Made by a program: the position numbers and the translations under genes. Shown here one piece after another: positions 1,234 to 62,953 of a DNA stretch of 64,000 bases. Source of the stretch: an uncultured Leptospirales bacterium (GTDB lineage: Bacteria; Spirochaetota; UBA4802; UBA5550); the NCBI GenBank assembly GCA_964450405.1, contig CAYVCQ010000010.1, positions 69,610 through 133,609 of the forward strand, in the 5' to 3' direction. The notes beneath the pieces are model-generated. The model saw only the letters and a program-made list of their open reading frames with translations. It searched no databases and was not told where the DNA came from. Within the stretch, counting starts at the first letter, position 1. The number at the start of each line of letters is the position of its first letter.

Positions 1234-1332
1234 CAGTCCTGCTGCAAGGGACTTTTTATTGTACAGCTTACCGTAACTCCGCAGGATCTGCCCGGTTGTC
1301 ACTATAGCAGCTAACGCTTGAATTAGTTGTTT

Positions 1333-1492
1333 GTCATTCCGGCTGGAGCGATAGCGGAATGCCGGAATCGCACAGTTGATGCATTATAAATTAGATTCCG
1401 GTATTTGGCCAGCATTAATGTAACATCGTGTTACTTGCAGGCAGGCAAACATCCTGTTTGCTCCAAAATTGAAGCCGCAAAACCGGAATGAC
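1333..1492. mobile_element. MITE-like non-autonomous element, copy 1 (160 bp) with perfect 10-bp terminal inverted repeats GTCATTCCGG / CCGGAATGAC
   Basis: Seen directly in the sequence. The element is intergenic between skp and the L,D-transpeptidase gene. It shares its termini and internal blocks (GAATGCCGGAATC, AGATTCCGGTATTTG, AATTGAAGC-GCAAAACCGGAATGAC) with the copy at 29262-29364. It carries no ORF. Confidence 0.6.
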
Positions 1493-1597
1493 AGAAAATG
1501 GTCTAATCAATTCGTAAACTGCTGTATTTAATTCATTAAGTTCTATGGAATAAAGTTTTTTAGCACAGTTCAACGGTCTAATAATGGTAAAGGTGTT

Positions 1598-6011: not shown

Positions 6012-6884
6012 TTGAAAAATTTAAAAGTATTTTTTTTTATAATCTTTGTAATCCTGAATACAATGGTGTCTGCTAAAGAAGAGACGCCATTGTATGACGA
6101 TTTTACACCGGATAAAATTTCAACCTTCGCATGTTCACTTATTGAAAAAGGTGAGTATTACAGGGCTTATGTAGAACTTCTCCGTCTTAATTCATATTAC
6201 CCGTCATCTCTTAGTGTTTCAGTTTTTGATATTACCTCCAATTATCTATTTTATAAAAGTAAAAGATTTGATGATCTGCTGGAATTTGATTCTTCCGGAA
6301 TTGCTGATAATATTTTTATACCTGTCTCACTGTTTAGAATAGACAGTCTCTTTAAATTAAATAGAAGAGATGAAGCTGAATCTGAATTGGATGTACTAAA
6401 CAAACGAGCGGACTCAGAAAGTTATCACGAATATTTAAAGAAAAGATCTGCATACATTAAAATTCTAAAAAATGAAAAAAATGAATTTTCAGGTTATGAT
6501 GAACTTTTTGAATATTCTGAAAATATTTACGGAAGTAAAAAGAATCCATATCTCGGAGCATTGGCAGGAGTAATTCCAGGAATGGGATTTATCTATGCCG
6601 GGGAGACTGGTACCGGTATTGTTGCACTGATTTTAATCAGTGCCGGTTCAGCGATCACATATTCATCATACAGAGATGGCTGGGATTCTTTGGCAATAAT
6701 TTCAGGGACAATAACATTTTTTTTCTATGGCGGGAGTATTCTTGGAGGATACATGCAGACAACAAGATACAACGATAGTCTCATGAAAACTCTGGAAATG
6801 AAACTTAATAGAGAGTTAATGCCTGAAAAAGATCTTGAAGAGATTTATATTAAATTCGGGTTAAATTCAAATGATTGTAAATGA
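6012..6884 (+). CDS. Hypothetical membrane protein (signal peptide, helical periplasmic part, C-terminal Gly-rich TM pair)
   Basis: Apparent TTG start. Signal peptide, and a C-terminal hydrophobic region (GALAGVIPGMGFIYAGETGTGIVALILISAGS). Its 3' end overlaps the ribD start by 14 nt. Confidence 0.4.
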   Translation: MKNLKVFFFIIFVILNTMVSAKEETPLYDDFTPDKISTFACSLIEKGEYYRAYVELLRLNSYYPSSLSVSVFDITSNYLFYKSKRFDDLLEFDSSGIADNIFIPVSLFRIDSLFKLNRRDEAESELDVLNKRADSESYHEYLKKRSAYIKILKNEKNEFSGYDELFEYSENIYGSKKNPYLGALAGVIPGMGFIYAGETGTGIVALILISAGSAITYSSYRDGWDSLAIISGTITFFFYGGSILGGYMQTTRYNDSLMKTLEMKLNRELMPEKDLEEIYIKFGLNSNDCK

Positions 6885-12184: not shown

Positions 12185-12716
12185 ATTTGTTTACCACGGA
12201 AAATTATTTTTAAACTGATAGATATGCAGTGACTCAAAAACATAGGGAAATTGTTTTTCCTGTAGTTTATGGATAACTGCATAATATTAGTAATTATTAT
12301 CTCAGGGAAACATAATGTCAATATAAAAAAGAGCATGAGAAAACAATTATTAAGCTTGTATTTAATAAGGAGGATGGAATCTTTTAGTGTCAATTATTGA
12401 AAATAATTGAAAACTCAGTAAAAATAGTTATTGTGTTTAAAACATTTTTTCTAAATTAAGAAGTGCTGAACTCAAATGTTATATAAGGGTATGCTCAAAA
12501 CCGGCTGCAATAGAAGGCATAGCTTTATTCTCAGCTGCTGTGACTTGTTTTTGCAATGGTTTTTACAATGTATGGTTATTAATGCTCTGAATCTATAATT
12601 TTTGATTTACAATAAAAAGATTTTATTTTACTTTATTAAAGTCGATATATTAGATACATGCAAAGATCCAGACTTAAACAAGTAACATGGATTTCATTTC
12701 AAGGGGATAATAAGTA

Positions 12717-19381: not shown

Positions 19382-19833
19382 ATATGCTTTCTTTTCTGAA
19401 ATTTCAAAAAGTTTGTAATCCTATGATATTTAATCTCAGTAGCTGCTCATAAACGGGTGGGAAAAATTGCTTCCCCGCGGCTATGGCGCGGGGAGGCATT
19501 ATTTGCCTTCAGTTTATGATTAGTTACTAATCTGCCTAGTTTATATAAATTAAATAATGTTGCAATAAAAATTTATATAGATGAAGATCCTTTTGCAGCC
19601 TGTTCGGGCTTTTGGTGTAACTGATTAATTTGTAATAATTCTTAAAATGCTGGTAAGATTGCTCTCTGACGCACCATGCACGACTCAGCTAAATCCACAA
19701 CTTATCCCAACTGATGAGCTCCCACCGCTTTTCATTGATAAACTTTCAAGGAGCATTTTTGGCCGTGGTTAATAAAAATAAATATGCTTCCTGTTGCCGC
19801 AGAAGGAGACCCAAATTCACATATAGAAAAAAG

Positions 19834-19862
19834 TTGACAATGTGCGCACATACCAATAAATT
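19834..19862 (+). promoter_or_regulatory. Sigma-70-type promoter (TTGACA - 17 bp - TAAATT) with a perfect 12-bp palindrome ATGTGCGCACAT filling the spacer; putative antitoxin operator
   Basis: Seen in the sequence 7-35 nt upstream of the first toxin-antitoxin gene's ATG (19869). The palindrome abuts the -35 hexamer. Confidence 0.5.
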
Positions 19863-19868
19863 GTATTT

Positions 19869-25360: not shown

Positions 25361-25533
25361 CTTCGACAGGCTCAGAATGACAAATAGAATGATAATCAGT
25401 ATGACAAATAGAATGACAAACAGCAGGACAGATAGAATGACAAGCTCAGAATAATAATCAGCATAACAGGCAGTATGACAAATAGAAAGACAAACAGAAT
25501 GAAAAATGGTTTGTCACCCTGAGCCTGTCGAAG
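25361..25533. repeat. Composite repeat: 15-bp inverted repeats (CTTCGACAGGCTCAG / CTGAGCCTGTCGAAG) bracketing about 11 tandem 12-nt units (consensus AATGACAAATAG)
   Basis: Seen directly in the sequence. It lies 53 bp upstream of the RsbU-like sensor gene. Its GAATGACA core also occurs at the MITE termini (1333-1492, 29262-29364). Confidence 0.75.
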
Positions 25534-25586: not shown

Positions 25587-27161
25587 ATGAAAGAAGATTC
25601 TTCAAAGATTAAGCATTCTGCAGATAAGCCTGCACATAAAAAAATCAGATTCGGGATAAGTCTTAAGTTTTCTCTTGCGATCATTGCCCTTGTATCTGTT
25701 ATTATATTAACCATTGCAGTATTTATTGTATACAGGGAGAGCGGTCTTTTTAAAGAACAGGTTTTTAATTTTACTAAAAGGGAGATTGTTCATCTTGGGA
25801 ATACCGCTCAGCAGACTATAGGCTATGAAGAACTAACTCTTTCAGATGCAGTAAATGAATTGAAGAAAATTGACTATTACAAATATGTTTTTGTTCTGGG
25901 GAGTAATAATGAAGTGCTATATTACTTTGACAGAAGAGGGCCGGAGGGTGATGTAAAGCATGAAGTCAGAAAACAATTCAACGATTCGATAGTAAGAAAT
26001 CTTGATAATAGAACTGATCATGACTCTATTGATATCCTTGAGAACAAAGATGCTGCATCAAAAGGGGCGATTTTCGATTTTTCTAAAGTCGTCTACAACA
26101 GAGCAGATAGTAAGAAAAAATCAGGTGTTGTAATTATAGGAATGTCGGATATAATAATCCGTAATGAAATTGCAAATATTAAGCGTCTTATAATGTTTAT
26201 TTTCCTCGGCTACATGGTTATCTCCACAATCGGAGCAGTTATCCTATCACTTATCATTATCAGACCGATTAAAAAAATATCATATGGTGCGTCGGTAATC
26301 GGGAAGGGGGATTTTTCTTATAGGATAGAAGTAAACAGTTCTGATGAATTGGGGGTGCTTGCCTCGGAATTCAATCAGATGACGGAGATGATTCAGGATT
26401 CGAAGGAAAAGGAGATTGAATCACGGATTATGAATGAACAGCTGGAGATTGCCCGGGATATTCAGGAAGGGCTTAATCCAATGGGTTATTACAATAAAAA
26501 AGGGATACAGATAAAGGGTAATACAAAAGCAGCTAAAGGGGTAGGAGGGGATTATTTCGATTACATAGATATTGATGAAAACAGAGTATGTGCACTCATT
26601 AGTGACGTATCTGGTAAAGGTGTACCGGCATCTCTGGTAATGGTTATGATTCGAACCGTTTTTACATCATATATTACAAGAAAGGATATTGACTGTGCAA
26701 GTGTTGTGAAGGCGATTAATGATTCTCTCAGTGCAGACTTCGCCATAGATAAATTTGCCACGCTGTTTTTTATGATTTATAACAGGGAAACAGAGGAACT
26801 GTCATTTTCAAATGCAGGTCATGGTCCGCTTTTCTGCTACAGAGCTGCTGAGAATGTCTGCACCAGAACATCACTTGACGGGGTTCCAATTGGTATTATG
26901 GATGAAGTGGATTATAAACAGGCTAAGGTTAAGCTGCATCCGGGAGATATGGTTGTTCTTTATACTGATGGTATTACGGAAATGAGGAATAGTTCCAAAG
27001 AGGAATACGGATTGGGGAGAGTCCATAAGTTGATGATGGAAAATCACCATTTAAGTGCCGAGGATTTTCTTGCGCTTCTTATTAGTGAAGTGGAAGTATT
27101 CCGTGGGGAAACTCCTCCTCATGATGATACTACGGCAATGGTATTTAAACGTGATAAATAA
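25587..27161 (+). CDS. Membrane sensor with HAMP and a PP2C-type Ser/Thr phosphatase domain (RsbU/SpoIIE family)
   Basis: Two TM helices flank a periplasmic domain. HAMP-like linker. C-terminal SpoIIE signature (GVGGDYFDYI ... LISDVSGKGVPASLVMV ... LYTDGITE ... HDDTTAMVFK). Confidence 0.8.
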   Translation: MKEDSSKIKHSADKPAHKKIRFGISLKFSLAIIALVSVIILTIAVFIVYRESGLFKEQVFNFTKREIVHLGNTAQQTIGYEELTLSDAVNELKKIDYYKYVFVLGSNNEVLYYFDRRGPEGDVKHEVRKQFNDSIVRNLDNRTDHDSIDILENKDAASKGAIFDFSKVVYNRADSKKKSGVVIIGMSDIIIRNEIANIKRLIMFIFLGYMVISTIGAVILSLIIIRPIKKISYGASVIGKGDFSYRIEVNSSDELGVLASEFNQMTEMIQDSKEKEIESRIMNEQLEIARDIQEGLNPMGYYNKKGIQIKGNTKAAKGVGGDYFDYIDIDENRVCALISDVSGKGVPASLVMVMIRTVFTSYITRKDIDCASVVKAINDSLSADFAIDKFATLFFMIYNRETEELSFSNAGHGPLFCYRAAENVCTRTSLDGVPIGIMDEVDYKQAKVKLHPGDMVVLYTDGITEMRNSSKEEYGLGRVHKLMMENHHLSAEDFLALLISEVEVFRGETPPHDDTTAMVFKRDK

Positions 27162-29182: not shown

Positions 29183-29261
29183 TGTATTTTCAGTAGTAAT
29201 CCCTAAACTTTTTTATAATAGAAAAATCTCTATTCGGCACTGATTCATAAGTATAATCATT

Positions 29262-29364
29262 GTCATTCCGGCTGCAGTGAAACGAAATGCCGGAATCTCA
29301 TACTACAGATTCAATCAGGAGATTCCGGTATTTGCAAGAATTGAAGCAGCAAAACCGGAATGAC
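29262..29364. mobile_element. MITE-like element, copy 2 (103 bp), same GTCATTCCGG / CCGGAATGAC termini as copy 1
   Basis: Seen directly in the sequence in the 239-bp spacer between the MoxR and VWA genes. It is co-linear with copy 1 but lacks a ~55-bp internal segment. Confidence 0.6.
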
Positions 29365-29421
29365 AAATGTTTAAAATGCAAACTTTTAGACAACTCCTGT
29401 AAAATCTTTTATGAATTCAAA

Positions 29422-39771: not shown

Positions 39772-40692
39772 ATGAAAAAGAAAATTCTGTTTATCAGCTG
39801 TCTGATAATCATTTTTTCGATAATAGGGTTTAACATCTATCAGAAAATACAGAAGTCCAAACGTGCTCCAAGGTCAAACGAGTTTGCCGTAGGTGTACAG
39901 CTTCTAAAAAAGGAAATGGTGGATATTTCTTATGAGTTTAACGGTATTTTAGAGGGAGATCCTCAGGTGAAAGTTTACTCTGATATCACCGGAAAATTTA
40001 TACGTAATGCAGTTTCAGAAGGCGGGTATGTTAATAGGGGCGGTGCTATTGCCTTTATAGACAGGGATATCATCGGGCAGGAATTTCAGCCGGCAATGAT
40101 CGTTTCACCAATCAGTGGAATGGTTAAGAAACTTTACTTCTCGGACCGTGGAGCTGCTGTAAACACAGCTCTACCTATTGCGGAAATTGCCAATACGGAG
40201 AGGGTAAAAGTAGTAGTGAATATAGGTCAGGAGAATATCGGAAAAATCAGAAAAGGAATGCAGGCACGGATATCTCAGGTTTTTGATTCTTCAATAAGTA
40301 TTTATTCATCCGTTTCTTCTGTAACTCCATTTGTAGATAGTGATACTCTTACTGGTTCATTTGAAGTTAAAGCTCCGGGAGTTAAGAGTATGACTATCGG
40401 TTCTTCTGTTACGGTAAGTGTTGTAACCGGAAAAATTAGCGCTTTCATGGTTCCCCTGGGAGCGGTTAATATGGGAATCAATGAGGTATATGTTTTTGTA
40501 AATGACAAAGGTAAAGCGCGTAAGGTCGCTGTTACTCAGGGATATATAAGCAGAGATAAAGTTCAGATATCCGGAGATTTTAAAGAGGGAGATGAGCTTA
40601 TAACTGATGGAAGTTTCAAATTATCAGAAGGATCAAGTGTGAAAATTGTGGGAGATCAGCAGAAAGGTGACGATAAAGGGACGCAGAAATGA
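39772..40692 (+). CDS. RND efflux periplasmic adaptor (membrane fusion protein, HlyD family)
   Basis: N-terminal TM anchor, lipoyl/beta-barrel adaptor architecture. Its stop overlaps the start of the RND pump gene. Confidence 0.7.
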   Translation: MKKKILFISCLIIIFSIIGFNIYQKIQKSKRAPRSNEFAVGVQLLKKEMVDISYEFNGILEGDPQVKVYSDITGKFIRNAVSEGGYVNRGGAIAFIDRDIIGQEFQPAMIVSPISGMVKKLYFSDRGAAVNTALPIAEIANTERVKVVVNIGQENIGKIRKGMQARISQVFDSSISIYSSVSSVTPFVDSDTLTGSFEVKAPGVKSMTIGSSVTVSVVTGKISAFMVPLGAVNMGINEVYVFVNDKGKARKVAVTQGYISRDKVQISGDFKEGDELITDGSFKLSEGSSVKIVGDQQKGDDKGTQK

Positions 40693-62142: not shown

Positions 62143-62953
62143 TTATATTCATTAATATTTTCGACTGAGTTTCATTTCCTCTTTTATCTGATCCGTTCAG
62201 CAGAATTTTCCCTTTCTTTATCGCGTTATCTACTGTGGCCATTCTATATGATATATTCATCTTCTCACCGGAGTTATCAAGCAGTTTAAGAATTGAATAA
62301 AGCCTGAATCTGTCCATCCCCCAGAATGATGAAGAGAGCTGATCATCGTGACCGGCATATCTCGTTATGAGTTTCTCTCTTATCAGACCAATCTCCTCAA
62401 AGGGAGTAATTCGCAACCATAGATCGTAATCTTCACAAGCCGGGAGTTTTTCATCAAAGAGACCATATTTATTAAAAATTTCTCTTGAGATGCAGACTGA
62501 TGAGGGGCTTATCATACATAAATCGAGGGACTGCGGGAATATTTTTCCATCTGTCTTTAAATGCTTTACTCCCGGATTGACTCTTACACCGTTTCTAATC
62601 CATATATCTTCAGTCTGATGTAATAGTATCTGCGGGTTCTTCGCAATAAATTCCCGGTGTTTACTAAGTTTTTTTTTATCCCATGTGTCATCGGAGTCAA
62701 GCAGTGTAATGTTTGGAGCGCAGCTTGATACAATTCCTTTGTTCCGGGCCGCACTGACTCCTGAATTTTCCTGAAAGATATAGGTAATCCGGTTGGAGTA
62801 TTCATCTGCAAAGGATGATGTTCCGTCATCCGATCCATCATCAACAACGATTAGTTCAAAATCAATATCACTCTGAGCAAGAACAGAATCAATGGCATTT
62901 TTTAATTTCTCTTTTCTGTTGTAAGATGGAATTATTACACTAAAATAAGGCAT
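62081..62953 (-). CDS. Family 2 glycosyltransferase
   Basis: GT-A N-terminus (FSVIIPSYNRKEKLKNAIDSVLAQS ... ELIVVDDGSDDGT) and DxD-type motifs. Confidence 0.85.
   Translation of the reverse strand: MPYFSVIIPSYNRKEKLKNAIDSVLAQSDIDFELIVVDDGSDDGTSSFADEYSNRITYIFQENSGVSAARNKGIVSSCAPNITLLDSDDTWDKKKLSKHREFIAKNPQILLHQTEDIWIRNGVRVNPGVKHLKTDGKIFPQSLDLCMISPSSVCISREIFNKYGLFDEKLPACEDYDLWLRITPFEEIGLIREKLITRYAGHDDQLSSSFWGMDRFRLYSILKLLDNSGEKMNISYRMATVDNAIKKGKILLNGSDKRGNETQSKILMNIITQLEAGFYKQTDYPNLLEI

What the first reader, a model, noticed from the sequence alone, without database searches (positions are those of the whole stretch)
1333..1492. A MITE-like element family with perfect GTCATTCCGG/CCGGAATGAC terminal inverted repeats (two copies in the window)
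Two intergenic copies (1333-1492, 160 bp; 29262-29364, 103 bp) share perfect 10-bp TIRs. They also share a left-arm internal hairpin (CATTCCGGC...GCCGGAATC), a central AGATTCCGGTATTTG block and a 3' block AATTGAAGC(C/A)GCAAAACCGGAATGAC. The longer copy carries an extra ~55-bp insert. Neither encodes a protein. The window has no transposase, so these look like non-autonomous miniature elements or a structured repeat family (REP/MITE-like). They could be genome-wide markers, regulatory RNAs or recombination hotspots.
Basis: seen in the sequence. Interest (0 to 1): 0.6.

Follow-up and report, generated by a model that had tools for sequence, protein, structure and literature searches.

The report
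Hairpin-pair repeats for Ssn nucleases
The two intergenic elements are real copies of a repeat whose core is a back-to-back pair of DNA hairpins of the type recently shown to be recognised by small single-strand-DNA-cutting Ssn nucleases; they are a gene-less, MITE-like version of the cassette that carries that nuclease gene in related bacteria.

Summary
Both copies are intergenic, share the stated blocks and occur far more often than chance.

Each "TIR" belongs to a hairpin of the form T-GTC-ATTCCGG…CCGGAAT-C. This is the signature of the NTS/SRM repeats bound and cut as ssDNA by Ssn GIY-YIG nucleases (Chenal 2025, PMC11893778). Each element is an inverted pair of such hairpins.

- **Gene-carrying relatives.** In related Leptospirales MAGs the same two ends enclose a 95-aa GIY-YIG gene. 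Copy B's right end matches that cassette at 45 of 48 nt.
- **Spread.** The left hairpin is almost invariant across at least seven phylum-level groups, in genomes of 37–70% GC.
- **Position.** It is intergenic in 84 of 87 cases, in all orientations relative to genes. It has no target-site duplication at these ends.
- **Copy A is longer than reported.** It spans 1303–1526 and has an outer ~30-nt inverted-repeat shell.
- **True MITE shells exist elsewhere.** Related doublets sit inside shells with perfect 8-bp duplications in 7 of 7 copies.
- **The window lacks the enzymes.** It has no transposase and no ssn gene. Whether the source genome has ssn is unknown.
- **Variant status.** The published SRM search string misses these long-loop hairpins.

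Verdict: a new variant of a known kind, of moderate interest.

The parts
1303..1526 (.). Copy A, full repeat unit (224 bp): outer inverted-repeat shell plus the core hairpin pair.
   Evidence: The left flank 1303-1332 is conserved in paralogous copies L096 and L100. The module TAYAGCAGYTWACG..TTAG..TGTCATTCCGG is found at both ends. The outer arms align at 23/35 positions and 0 of 2000 shuffles reach that score.
1303..1332 (+). Copy A outer left arm (TATAGCAGCTAACGCTTGAATTAGTTGTTT). This shell module is shared by Spirochaetota elements.
   Evidence: The same module occurs in L039, L060, L086, L096, L100, L108, L111 and L119.
1332..1369 (+). Copy A hairpin H1, an SRM-like motif on the + strand: T-GTC-ATTCCGGC-(17-nt loop TGGAGCGATAGCGGAAT)-GCCGGAAT-C.
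   Evidence: The same hairpin lies directly upstream of ssn in L071, L057, L207 and L110.
1394..1493 (-). Copy A hairpin H2, an SRM-like motif read on the - strand: T-GTC-ATTCCGGTTTTGC...GCAAATACCGGAAT-C, with an expanded loop.
   Evidence: ssDNA fold -19.1 kcal/mol, z = -3.35. The last 30 nt match the right end of the L071 ssn cassette at 26/30.
1408..1462 (.). Extra ~55-nt segment in the loop of copy A's H2. It carries two small hairpins (1420-1434 and 1445-1461).
   Evidence: It is shared only with the element in L044, where one stem shows G-C to A-T changes on both sides.
1493..1526 (-). Copy A outer right arm (reverse complement TACAGCAGTTTACGAATTGATTAGACCATTTTCT).
29249..29368 (.). Copy B, the extent shared with its closest relative. 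The core is 29262-29364 and no outer inverted repeat is detectable.
   Evidence: It is 91.7% identical over 120 nt to L052 in a different genomic context. The outer arms align at chance level.
29261..29297 (+). Copy B hairpin H1: T-GTC-ATTCCGGC-(16-nt loop)-GCCGGAAT-C.
   Evidence: It matches the left end of the L071 cassette at 38/45.
29321..29365 (-). Copy B hairpin H2, read on the - strand: T-GTC-ATTCCGGTTTTGC...GCAAATACCGGAAT-C.
   Evidence: -10.6 kcal/mol, z = -5.9. The right 48 nt are 45/48 identical to the right end of the L071 ssn cassette.

Best explanation
Each element is a gene-less, inverted pair of Ssn-related-motif (SRM/NTS-type) hairpins.

**Shown here.**
- Each arm reads T-GTC, then a palindromic stem starting ATTCC, then a loop, then the return stem ending GGAAT, then C. 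One arm is on each strand, and both point inward.
- The same two arms enclose a 95-aa single-domain GIY-YIG gene in related Leptospirales and in other phyla.
- The window copies therefore relate to that cassette as a MITE relates to its autonomous element: same ends, gene missing.

**Inferred from Chenal et al. 2025.**
- When the region becomes single-stranded (replication, repair or DNA uptake), each arm folds.
- A cognate Ssn nuclease binds the stem and the 3' C. It cuts the ssDNA a few nucleotides 5' of GTC.
- That places the cuts just outside the core, near 1329 on the + strand and near 1496 on the - strand for copy A. For copy B they fall near 29258 and 29368.
- With one correctly oriented motif per strand, either strand would be cleavable. 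The expected effect is on ssDNA processing and recombination around the flanked genes, not on transcription.

**Spread (inferred).**
- The core doublets have no target-site duplication of their own.
- Copy A, and related copies in other genomes, sit inside outer inverted-repeat shells. Some of these shells carry clean duplications.
- Multiplication within genomes is therefore probably by transposases acting in trans on those shells, with the hairpin pair as the conserved cargo.

Whether the source genome encodes an Ssn is not known.
For: **Motif anatomy.**
- GTC + ATTCCGG stem + C is present in all four arms.
- This is the same flank and stem logic as the NTS, CGTCATTCCCGCGMAVGCGGGAATCYRG. In that motif the GTC governs cleavage and the C after the palindrome governs binding (PMC11893778).

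**Motif-first scan of 185,579 species genomes.**
Their GC content ranges from 37 to 70%.
- Six GIY-YIG genes occur in these ~0.7 Mb (PF01541, E 1e-14 to 1e-16). All lie between or beside the hairpins.
- Copy B's right end matches the L071 cassette (2016-2405) at 45/48. The left ends match at 38/45 (copy B) and 40/45 (copy A).
- A 93%-identical ssn cassette occurs in SRR13723394, one of the runs that hold the window's own genes.

**Protein-first test on 80 metagenomic homologues.**
- 58 of 79 have a forward SRM upstream, 50 of 74 have an inverted SRM downstream, and 47 have both. Only 5 of 80 control windows have any.
- The commonest stem is ATTCCCG, the Neisseria NTS stem.

**Other support.**
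- The catalytic residues Y7/Y18/E65 sit one position from the Nm SsnA residues Y6/Y17/E64.
- 68 of 102 assessable H1 copies have an inverted partner, mostly 25-125 nt away.
- The H2 stem covaries: seven complementary variants, with 41 of 45 elements fully complementary against 1.8 of 4 positions for shuffled partners.
- 84 of 87 copies are intergenic, in all four orientations relative to the neighbouring genes.
- The ssDNA folds have z-scores of -4.7 to -6.5.
- Outer shells: an 8-bp duplication in 7 of 7 copies, and a 3-bp duplication in 5 of 8.
Against: - No ssn gene lies in the 64-kb window. I could not establish that the source genome has one. The ssn found in the same sample belongs to a different Leptospirales lineage (L207 is close to L057 and L071, whereas the window is only ~70% identical to that lineage).
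- The published degenerate SRM search string finds nothing in the window or in the L071/L207 cassette, although it finds 80 sites in the protein-first loci. The loops here are 16-81 nt against 0-5 nt in that string.
- No Ssn has been tested on a long-loop hairpin.
- I could not run a CDD search, so assignment of the associated proteins to cd10448 rests on size, domain, catalytic spacing and SRM flanks.
- The minimum-energy ssDNA fold of the whole element is a nested long hairpin in which GTC is paired, not two local hairpins.
- Only two copies are visible in the window.
Confidence: 0.72

Rival explanations
1. Ordinary MITE. On this reading GTCATTCCGG / CCGGAATGAC are the binding ends of a DDE transposase encoded elsewhere in the genome, and the hairpins are incidental.
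For: - The elements are short, non-coding, intergenic and have perfect inverted ends.
- Related doublets do sit in elements with clean 8-bp duplications (7 of 7).
- Copy A has a longer ~40-nt inverted repeat.
Against: - No duplication abuts the GTCATTCCGG ends in 52 of 57 distinct elements, the same as shuffled controls.
- The duplications that exist flank separate outer shells, which differ between genomes.
- The gene enclosed by these very ends is a GIY-YIG nuclease, not a transposase.
- A 36-nt hairpin that is near-identical across phyla and GC contents is not what lineage-specific MITE ends look like.
Confidence: 0.1
2. Decayed relics. On this reading the doublets descend from an Ssn cassette, or from a MITE carrying one. 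The genome no longer has the nuclease and the elements do nothing now.
For: - There is no ssn in the window.
- Copy B has lost any outer inverted repeat.
- The two copies are only ~76% identical in the left half.
- One relative carries a frameshifted ssn (L090).
Against: - All four hairpins keep the GTC, an 8-13-bp stem and the 3' C intact.
- The ends are 94% identical to an intact cassette in co-resident Leptospirales.
- In the paper, 81% of genomes with more than 200 SRMs encode an Ssn.
Confidence: 0.12
3. REP/REPIN-type elements, maintained by a RAYT (a Y1 HUH transposase).
For: - They are intergenic palindromic doublets that can fold into one long hairpin.
- They have no target-site duplication.
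- The paper itself draws the analogy.
Against: - The motif begins GTC rather than the GTAG head known for REPs (my own knowledge).
- The adjacent gene is GIY-YIG in 6 of 6 motif-first cases, and SRMs flank 47-58 of 80 protein-first cases.
- No RAYT-type gene came to notice next to any copy, though I ran no dedicated RAYT (Y1 transposase) search on the loci.
- Near-identity across phyla is unlike the species-specific REPs.
Confidence: 0.03
4. A cis-regulatory or structured RNA (leader, attenuator, terminator or sRNA) of the neighbouring genes.
For: The structure is strong (z-scores to -6.5). Copy B lies inside a moxR-vwa gene pair.
Against: - There is no Rfam match even at E = 1.
- No T-tract follows the hairpins. 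The skp-like gene has its own terminator at 1235-1253.
- The two copies have opposite orientation relative to transcription. Across 87 copies all four orientations occur.
- The gene neighbours are unrelated between copies, and the orthologous junction is empty in L074.
- SsnA does not bind the RNA form of the NTS.
Confidence: 0.03

Closest known systems
NTS / Ssn-related motifs (SRM) and the NTS-ssnA-NTS cassette (Chenal et al. 2025, Nat Commun, PMC11893778)
   Same: - The 5' (C/T)GTCAT, a palindrome starting ATTCC and a C after the palindrome.
- Hundreds of intergenic copies in some genomes.
- Inverted copies flanking a ~95-aa single-domain GIY-YIG gene.
- Distribution across phyla.
   Different: - The stem is ATTCCGG rather than ATTCCCG.
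- The loops are 16-17 nt (H1, with a conserved GCGAAGC-type mini-hairpin) and 26-81 nt (H2), against 0-5 nt. The published search string therefore misses them.
- Here the motifs occur as gene-less inverted doublets.
- The host is a spirochaete. The paper's main text mentions neither Spirochaetota nor MITE-like forms.
- Cleavage has not been tested.
Neisseria dRS3 repeats and NIMEs (Neisseria intergenic mosaic elements; my own knowledge)
   Same: Short ATTCC(C)…GGAAT palindromes bracket 50-150-bp variable segments in intergenic DNA, giving a mosaic build.
   Different: - The host phylum is different.
- Here the two hairpins are strictly inverted and share their ends with an ssn cassette.
- Some copies lie inside transposon-like shells with target-site duplications.
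- dRS3 is also a phage integration target, which was not examined here.
REPINs / BIMEs with RAYT transposases
   Same: Intergenic palindromic doublets, no target-site duplication, a single associated small nuclease-type gene flanked by the repeats, and presumed recognition as ssDNA hairpins.
   Different: The associated enzyme is GIY-YIG, not an HUH Y1 transposase. The motif head is GTC, not GTAG. The motif is conserved across phyla.
Classical MITEs (for example IS66-, IS5- or IS630-derived; ISfinder conventions, my own knowledge)
   Same: - A 100-220-bp non-coding unit with inverted ends.
- Related doublets lie in shells with 8-bp duplications (GTAA… ends) or 3-bp duplications.
- Copy A has a ~40-nt inverted repeat beginning TA-YAGCAG.
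   Different: - For the window copies no duplication longer than a possible TA is seen.
- No cognate transposase has been identified.
- The conserved part is the internal hairpin pair, not the outer ends.

Membership tests
Ssn-related motif (SRM/NTS) repeats | A conserved oriented 5' flank (H)GTC immediately before the palindrome. In the paper this flank governs cleavage. | tested here: met
   T-GTC precedes the stem in all four arms. Position -1 is T in 52 of 57 related elements.
Ssn-related motif (SRM/NTS) repeats | A semi-palindromic hairpin core of the ATTCC…GGAAT type, followed directly by C. In the paper this C is crucial for binding. | tested here: met
   ATTCCGG(C)…(G)CCGGAAT-C is present in all four arms. 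The stem covaries in relatives. The ssDNA folds are shown.
Ssn-related motif (SRM/NTS) repeats | A match to the published degenerate search string HGTCWYN(0-2)YYVSBRHN(0-5)WNVSBRGN(0-2)RNCYNB. | tested here: not met
   There are 0 matches in the window and 0 in the L071/L207 cassette. The positive control gave 80 matches in 177 kb of ssn loci, and canonical NTS strings match. The cause is the loop length of 16-81 nt.
Ssn-related motif (SRM/NTS) repeats | Spatial association with an ssnA homologue, including motifs on both sides of the gene. | tested here: met
   This is met in relatives but not in the window. All six ssn genes in the motif-first loci lie between or beside the hairpins. L071/L207 carry the same ends as the window copies. 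The protein-first test gave 47 of 80 loci with motifs on both sides, against 5 of 80 controls.
Ssn-related motif (SRM/NTS) repeats | The host genome encodes an Ssn (a cd10448 GIY-YIG protein). | tested here: inconclusive
   There is none in the 64-kb window. One occurs in the same sequencing run but belongs to another Leptospirales lineage. Five further look-ups gave unrelated samples. The rest of the genome was not available.
Ssn-related motif (SRM/NTS) repeats | Binding and cleavage by Ssn as ssDNA only, strand-specifically, a few nt 5' of the motif. | not testable with these tools
   This needs biochemistry. The predicted cut sites are given in the report.
Ssn nuclease family (the proteins associated with the repeat in relatives) | A single-domain GIY-YIG protein of ~94 aa, with the catalytic Tyr/Tyr/Glu and cd10448 membership. 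| tested here: inconclusive
   PF01541 is the only domain of note, at 95-100 aa. Y7/Y18/E65 compare with Nm Y6/Y17/E64. Sources name the homologues 'GIY-YIG nuclease family protein'. No CDD search and no Neisseria sequence were available. There is no PDB relative.
Classical transposase-mobilised MITE | Target-site duplications directly flanking the terminal inverted repeats. | tested here: not met
   At the GTCATTCCGG ends there is none beyond chance. At the outer ends of copy A (1303 and 1526) there is none beyond a possible TA. The feature is met only for the outer shells of relatives in other genomes.
Classical transposase-mobilised MITE | An autonomous partner with the same ends that encodes a transposase. 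| tested here: not met
   The partner with the same ends encodes a GIY-YIG nuclease. No transposase was found in the window. No transposase partner was found for the outer shell, but the search was limited to the fetched loci.
REP/REPIN-RAYT | A GTAG-type head and an adjacent Y1 (HUH) transposase gene flanked by the repeats. | tested here: not met
   The head is GTC(A). The flanked gene is GIY-YIG. No dedicated RAYT search was run on the loci.

The most novel reading that the evidence does not exclude
SRM-ssn-SRM cassettes are themselves a mobile-element class driven by a GIY-YIG ssDNA nuclease and spread horizontally across phyla. Their gene-less hairpin doublets, such as the two in this window, are repeatedly captured by, or home into the centres of, unrelated classical MITE shells. 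Three shell types were seen: GTAA ends with 8-bp duplications, a shell with 3-bp duplications, and the spirochaete TAYAGCAG shell. On this reading the hairpin pair gives those MITEs, or their hosts, a selectable property, for example Ssn-dependent control of ssDNA recombination at the insertion site.
Probability: 0.3. Interest if true: 0.75.

Novelty: new variant of a known kind. Interest (0 to 1): 0.45.

Why it matters
Ssn nucleases and their hairpin repeats were described only in 2025. Their role outside Neisseria, and whether the cassette is a mobile element, remain open questions.

This window shows the family in a spirochaete, in a long-loop form that the published search string misses. 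Genome surveys using that string therefore undercount it.

The window also shows the gene-less doublet form. Its ends match an intact nuclease cassette. In other genomes the same doublet rides inside true MITE shells.

Together these give concrete, testable material for how such repeats multiply: defined oligonucleotides, a cognate protein, and three shell types with or without duplications.

For annotation, such elements should be labelled SRM-type repeats. They should not be labelled transposon ends or regulatory RNAs.

Tried and rejected
- **Known RNA families.** Rfam gave nothing at gathering threshold over the whole window, or at E ≤ 1 on both elements.
- **Hammerhead-like core in the H1 loop.** I checked this by eye. 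The loop lacks the CUGANGA…GAAA core and varies at the required positions, so I rejected it.
- **Terminator or promoter role.** There is no T-tract, and the upstream gene has its own terminator.
None were found.
- **Outer inverted repeat for copy B.** The alignment was at chance level.
- **The ~55-nt insert of copy A as an independent repeat.** It is found only in L044.
- **Outer shells around ssn cassettes.** They are absent in 51 of 52 cassettes.
- **Locating ssn in the source organism.** The homologue search plus six contig look-ups and a cluster listing found a cassette in the same run. It belongs to another lineage, and the cluster listing carries no sample names.
- **Solved structures.** There is none for the associated protein.
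- **The paper's supplementary tables.** They are not held.

Full report
**1. Observation**

GTCATTCCGG and its complement occur without mismatch only at the four ends. The hairpin pattern ATTCCGG-N(3-33)-CCGGAAT occurs three times against 0.01 expected by chance. A self-BLAST of the window finds these two loci as its only dispersed repeat. The shared blocks and the ~55-nt extra segment of copy A are real.

Both copies are intergenic. Copy A lies after the terminator of an OmpH/Skp-like gene and before a YkuD gene. Copy B lies between a MoxR-type AAA gene and a VWA_CoxE gene.

The window is ordinary chromosomal DNA of 37% GC. None of 47 ORFs has a transposase, integrase or GIY-YIG domain. Its closest relatives among the fetched loci are Spirochaetota and Leptospirales MAGs.

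**2. Anatomy**

Each element consists of two hairpins, not one unit with simple ends.
- H1 on the + strand reads T-GTC-ATTCCGGC-(16-17 nt)-GCCGGAAT-C.
- H2, read on the - strand, is T-GTC-ATTCCGGTTTTGC…GCAAATACCGGAAT-C.

As ssDNA the elements fold strongly, with z-scores of -4.7 to -6.5. The lowest-energy fold pairs outer with outer and inner with inner half-stems. The two local hairpins are the alternative fold.

**3. What the motif is**

A literature search on the end sequences led to Chenal et al. 2025 (PMC11893778). The Neisseria NTS is CGTCATTCCCGCGMAVGCGGGAATCYRG and contains the old dRS3 repeat. Its relatives in other bacteria are called Ssn-related motifs (SRMs).

SsnA is a 94-aa single-domain GIY-YIG protein. 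It binds these motifs and cuts them a few nucleotides upstream, only when they are single-stranded DNA. The GTC governs cleavage and the C after the palindrome governs binding. The gene is typically flanked by the motif on both sides.

The window's four arms carry exactly this GTC / ATTCC-palindrome / C logic.

**4. Test of the link, motif first**

They come from Leptospirales/Spirochaetota, KSB1, Calditrichota, Ignavibacteriota, Bacteroidota, Fibrobacter, Alphaproteobacteria (Bosea, Hansschlegelia, Chelatococcus), Brocadia and Bryobacterales. GC content ranges from 37 to 70%. The 36-nt hairpin is often identical across these groups.

- 68 of 102 assessable copies have an inverted SRM partner, mostly 25-125 nt away.
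- The partner's stem varies but stays complementary. There are seven variants, and 41 of 45 elements are fully complementary, against 1.8 of 4 positions for shuffled partners.
- 84 of 87 low-GC copies lie outside long ORFs, in all four orientations relative to their neighbours.

Six GIY-YIG genes occur in these loci. All lie between or beside the hairpins, and one is frameshifted.

In L071 (Leptospirales) the 390-bp unit is H1, then a 95-aa gene whose stop codon overlaps H2, then H2. Copy B's right 48 nt are 45/48 identical to that unit's right end. The left ends match at 38/45 (copy B) and 40/45 (copy A). The window elements are therefore the same cassette without the gene.

**5. Test of the link, protein first**

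I fetched eighty metagenomic homologues of the cassette protein.
- 58 of 79 have a forward SRM within 200 nt upstream.
- 50 of 74 have an inverted SRM downstream.
- 47 have both, against 5 of 80 control windows 1 kb away.
- The commonest stem is ATTCCCG, the NTS stem.

The proteins have Tyr7/Tyr18/Glu65, one position from the residues mutated in Nm SsnA. I could not run CDD, so cd10448 membership is inferred.

**6. Mobility**

No target-site duplication abuts the GTCATTCCGG ends, and none abuts 52 ssn cassettes.

The site is not conserved among relatives. In L074 moxR and vwa overlap with no spacer. In L040 the same junction holds a different family member. Logan contigs of the window's organism end at window 1494 and at 29339/29347, at or inside the core, as expected for a repeat.

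The repeat units are often larger than the core.
- **Copy A** extends to 1303-1526, with outer arms TAYAGCAGYTWACG…TTAG. These arms recur at the ends of elements in several Spirochaetota MAGs, once around a different core.
- **A second shell** (GTAAnAGTTCA) carries perfect 8-bp duplications in 7 of 7 copies.
- **A third shell** has 3-bp T-rich duplications in 5 of 8 copies.

The doublets therefore do travel inside genuine MITE shells, but the shells, not the GTCATTCCGG repeats, are the transposing ends. Copy B has no detectable shell repeat.

**7. Limits**

The window has no ssn. An ssn cassette 93% identical to L071's occurs in run SRR13723394, which also holds the window's genes. Its flanks place it in the L057/L071 lineage, not the window's lineage. 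Other look-ups led to unrelated samples.

The published SRM search string finds nothing in the window or in L071/L207, although the positive control works. These are long-loop variants, and their cleavage by an Ssn is untested.

**8. Verdict**

The elements are gene-less inverted doublets of Ssn-type hairpins, and copy A lies inside an additional inverted-repeat shell.

The most likely activity is to serve as ssDNA recognition and cleavage sites for a GIY-YIG Ssn nuclease, with consequences for ssDNA recombination rather than transcription. That step is inferred, not shown.

It is a new variant of a kind described in 2025, of moderate interest. The main open point it bears on is whether Ssn cassettes and their doublets are mobile in their own right.

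Noticed in passing
window 25365-25423 and 25439-25497: A 59-nt direct repeat (81% identical), with copies starting 74 nt apart, lies in the intergenic gap upstream of the HAMP-SpoIIE gene 25587-27161.
   Followed up: no
window 40342-40394 (- strand): The hairpin GTCATACTC…GAGTATC resembles the Neisseria NTSvar motif. It lies inside the HlyD-like ORF 39772-40692, so it is probably chance.
   Followed up: partly
L209 693-1013 and L210 1501-1821: An Ssn homologue (P0008, 73% identical to the L071 protein) sits between the bAvd and reverse-transcriptase genes of a DGR-like cassette (HRDC, bAvd, GIY-YIG, RVT_1). The nuclease cassette may have inserted into a retroelement.
   Followed up: no
L009, L036, L038, L054, L083, L088, L099 (for example L036 - strand 6682-6834): These are 153-172-bp elements with outer ends GTAAnAGTTCA, perfect 8-bp target-site duplications in 7 of 7 copies, and the same hairpin doublet as core. 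GTAA ends with 8-bp duplications are typical of IS66-family elements (my own knowledge).
   Followed up: partly
L111 3187-3355: The spirochaete outer shell (TATAGCA…ACGA…TTAG) encloses a different hairpin core here (GTCATTTCGA…). Shell and core therefore recombine as modules.
   Followed up: no
L046, L068, L079, L081, L085, L087, L089, L114 (Calditrichaceae MAG CAZFVV01): Near-identical 168-170-bp copies have ~27-nt outer inverted repeats (GGAGTGAT…/…GACCGATCC) around the doublet. Five of the eight have matching 3-bp T-rich flanks.
   Followed up: partly
L021, L027, L037 and 15 further loci of MAG CAZOBD01: This MAG is labelled 'uncultured Hyphomicrobiales' but has 39.6% GC over 125 kb and many low-GC-type doublets. 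The taxonomic label looks doubtful.
   Followed up: no
H1 loop, window 1344-1360 and 29273-29288: The loop holds a second GGAAT(G) return arm and a GCGAAGC-like mini-hairpin. The 5' arm CATTCCG can therefore pair with either of two 3' partners. This layout is conserved from Alphaproteobacteria to Spirochaetota, and its meaning is unknown.
   Followed up: no
window 62143-62953, 12185-12716 and 19382-19868: These are unusually long ORF-free gaps (811, 532 and 487 nt) with no Rfam match at gathering threshold. I did not examine them further.
   Followed up: no
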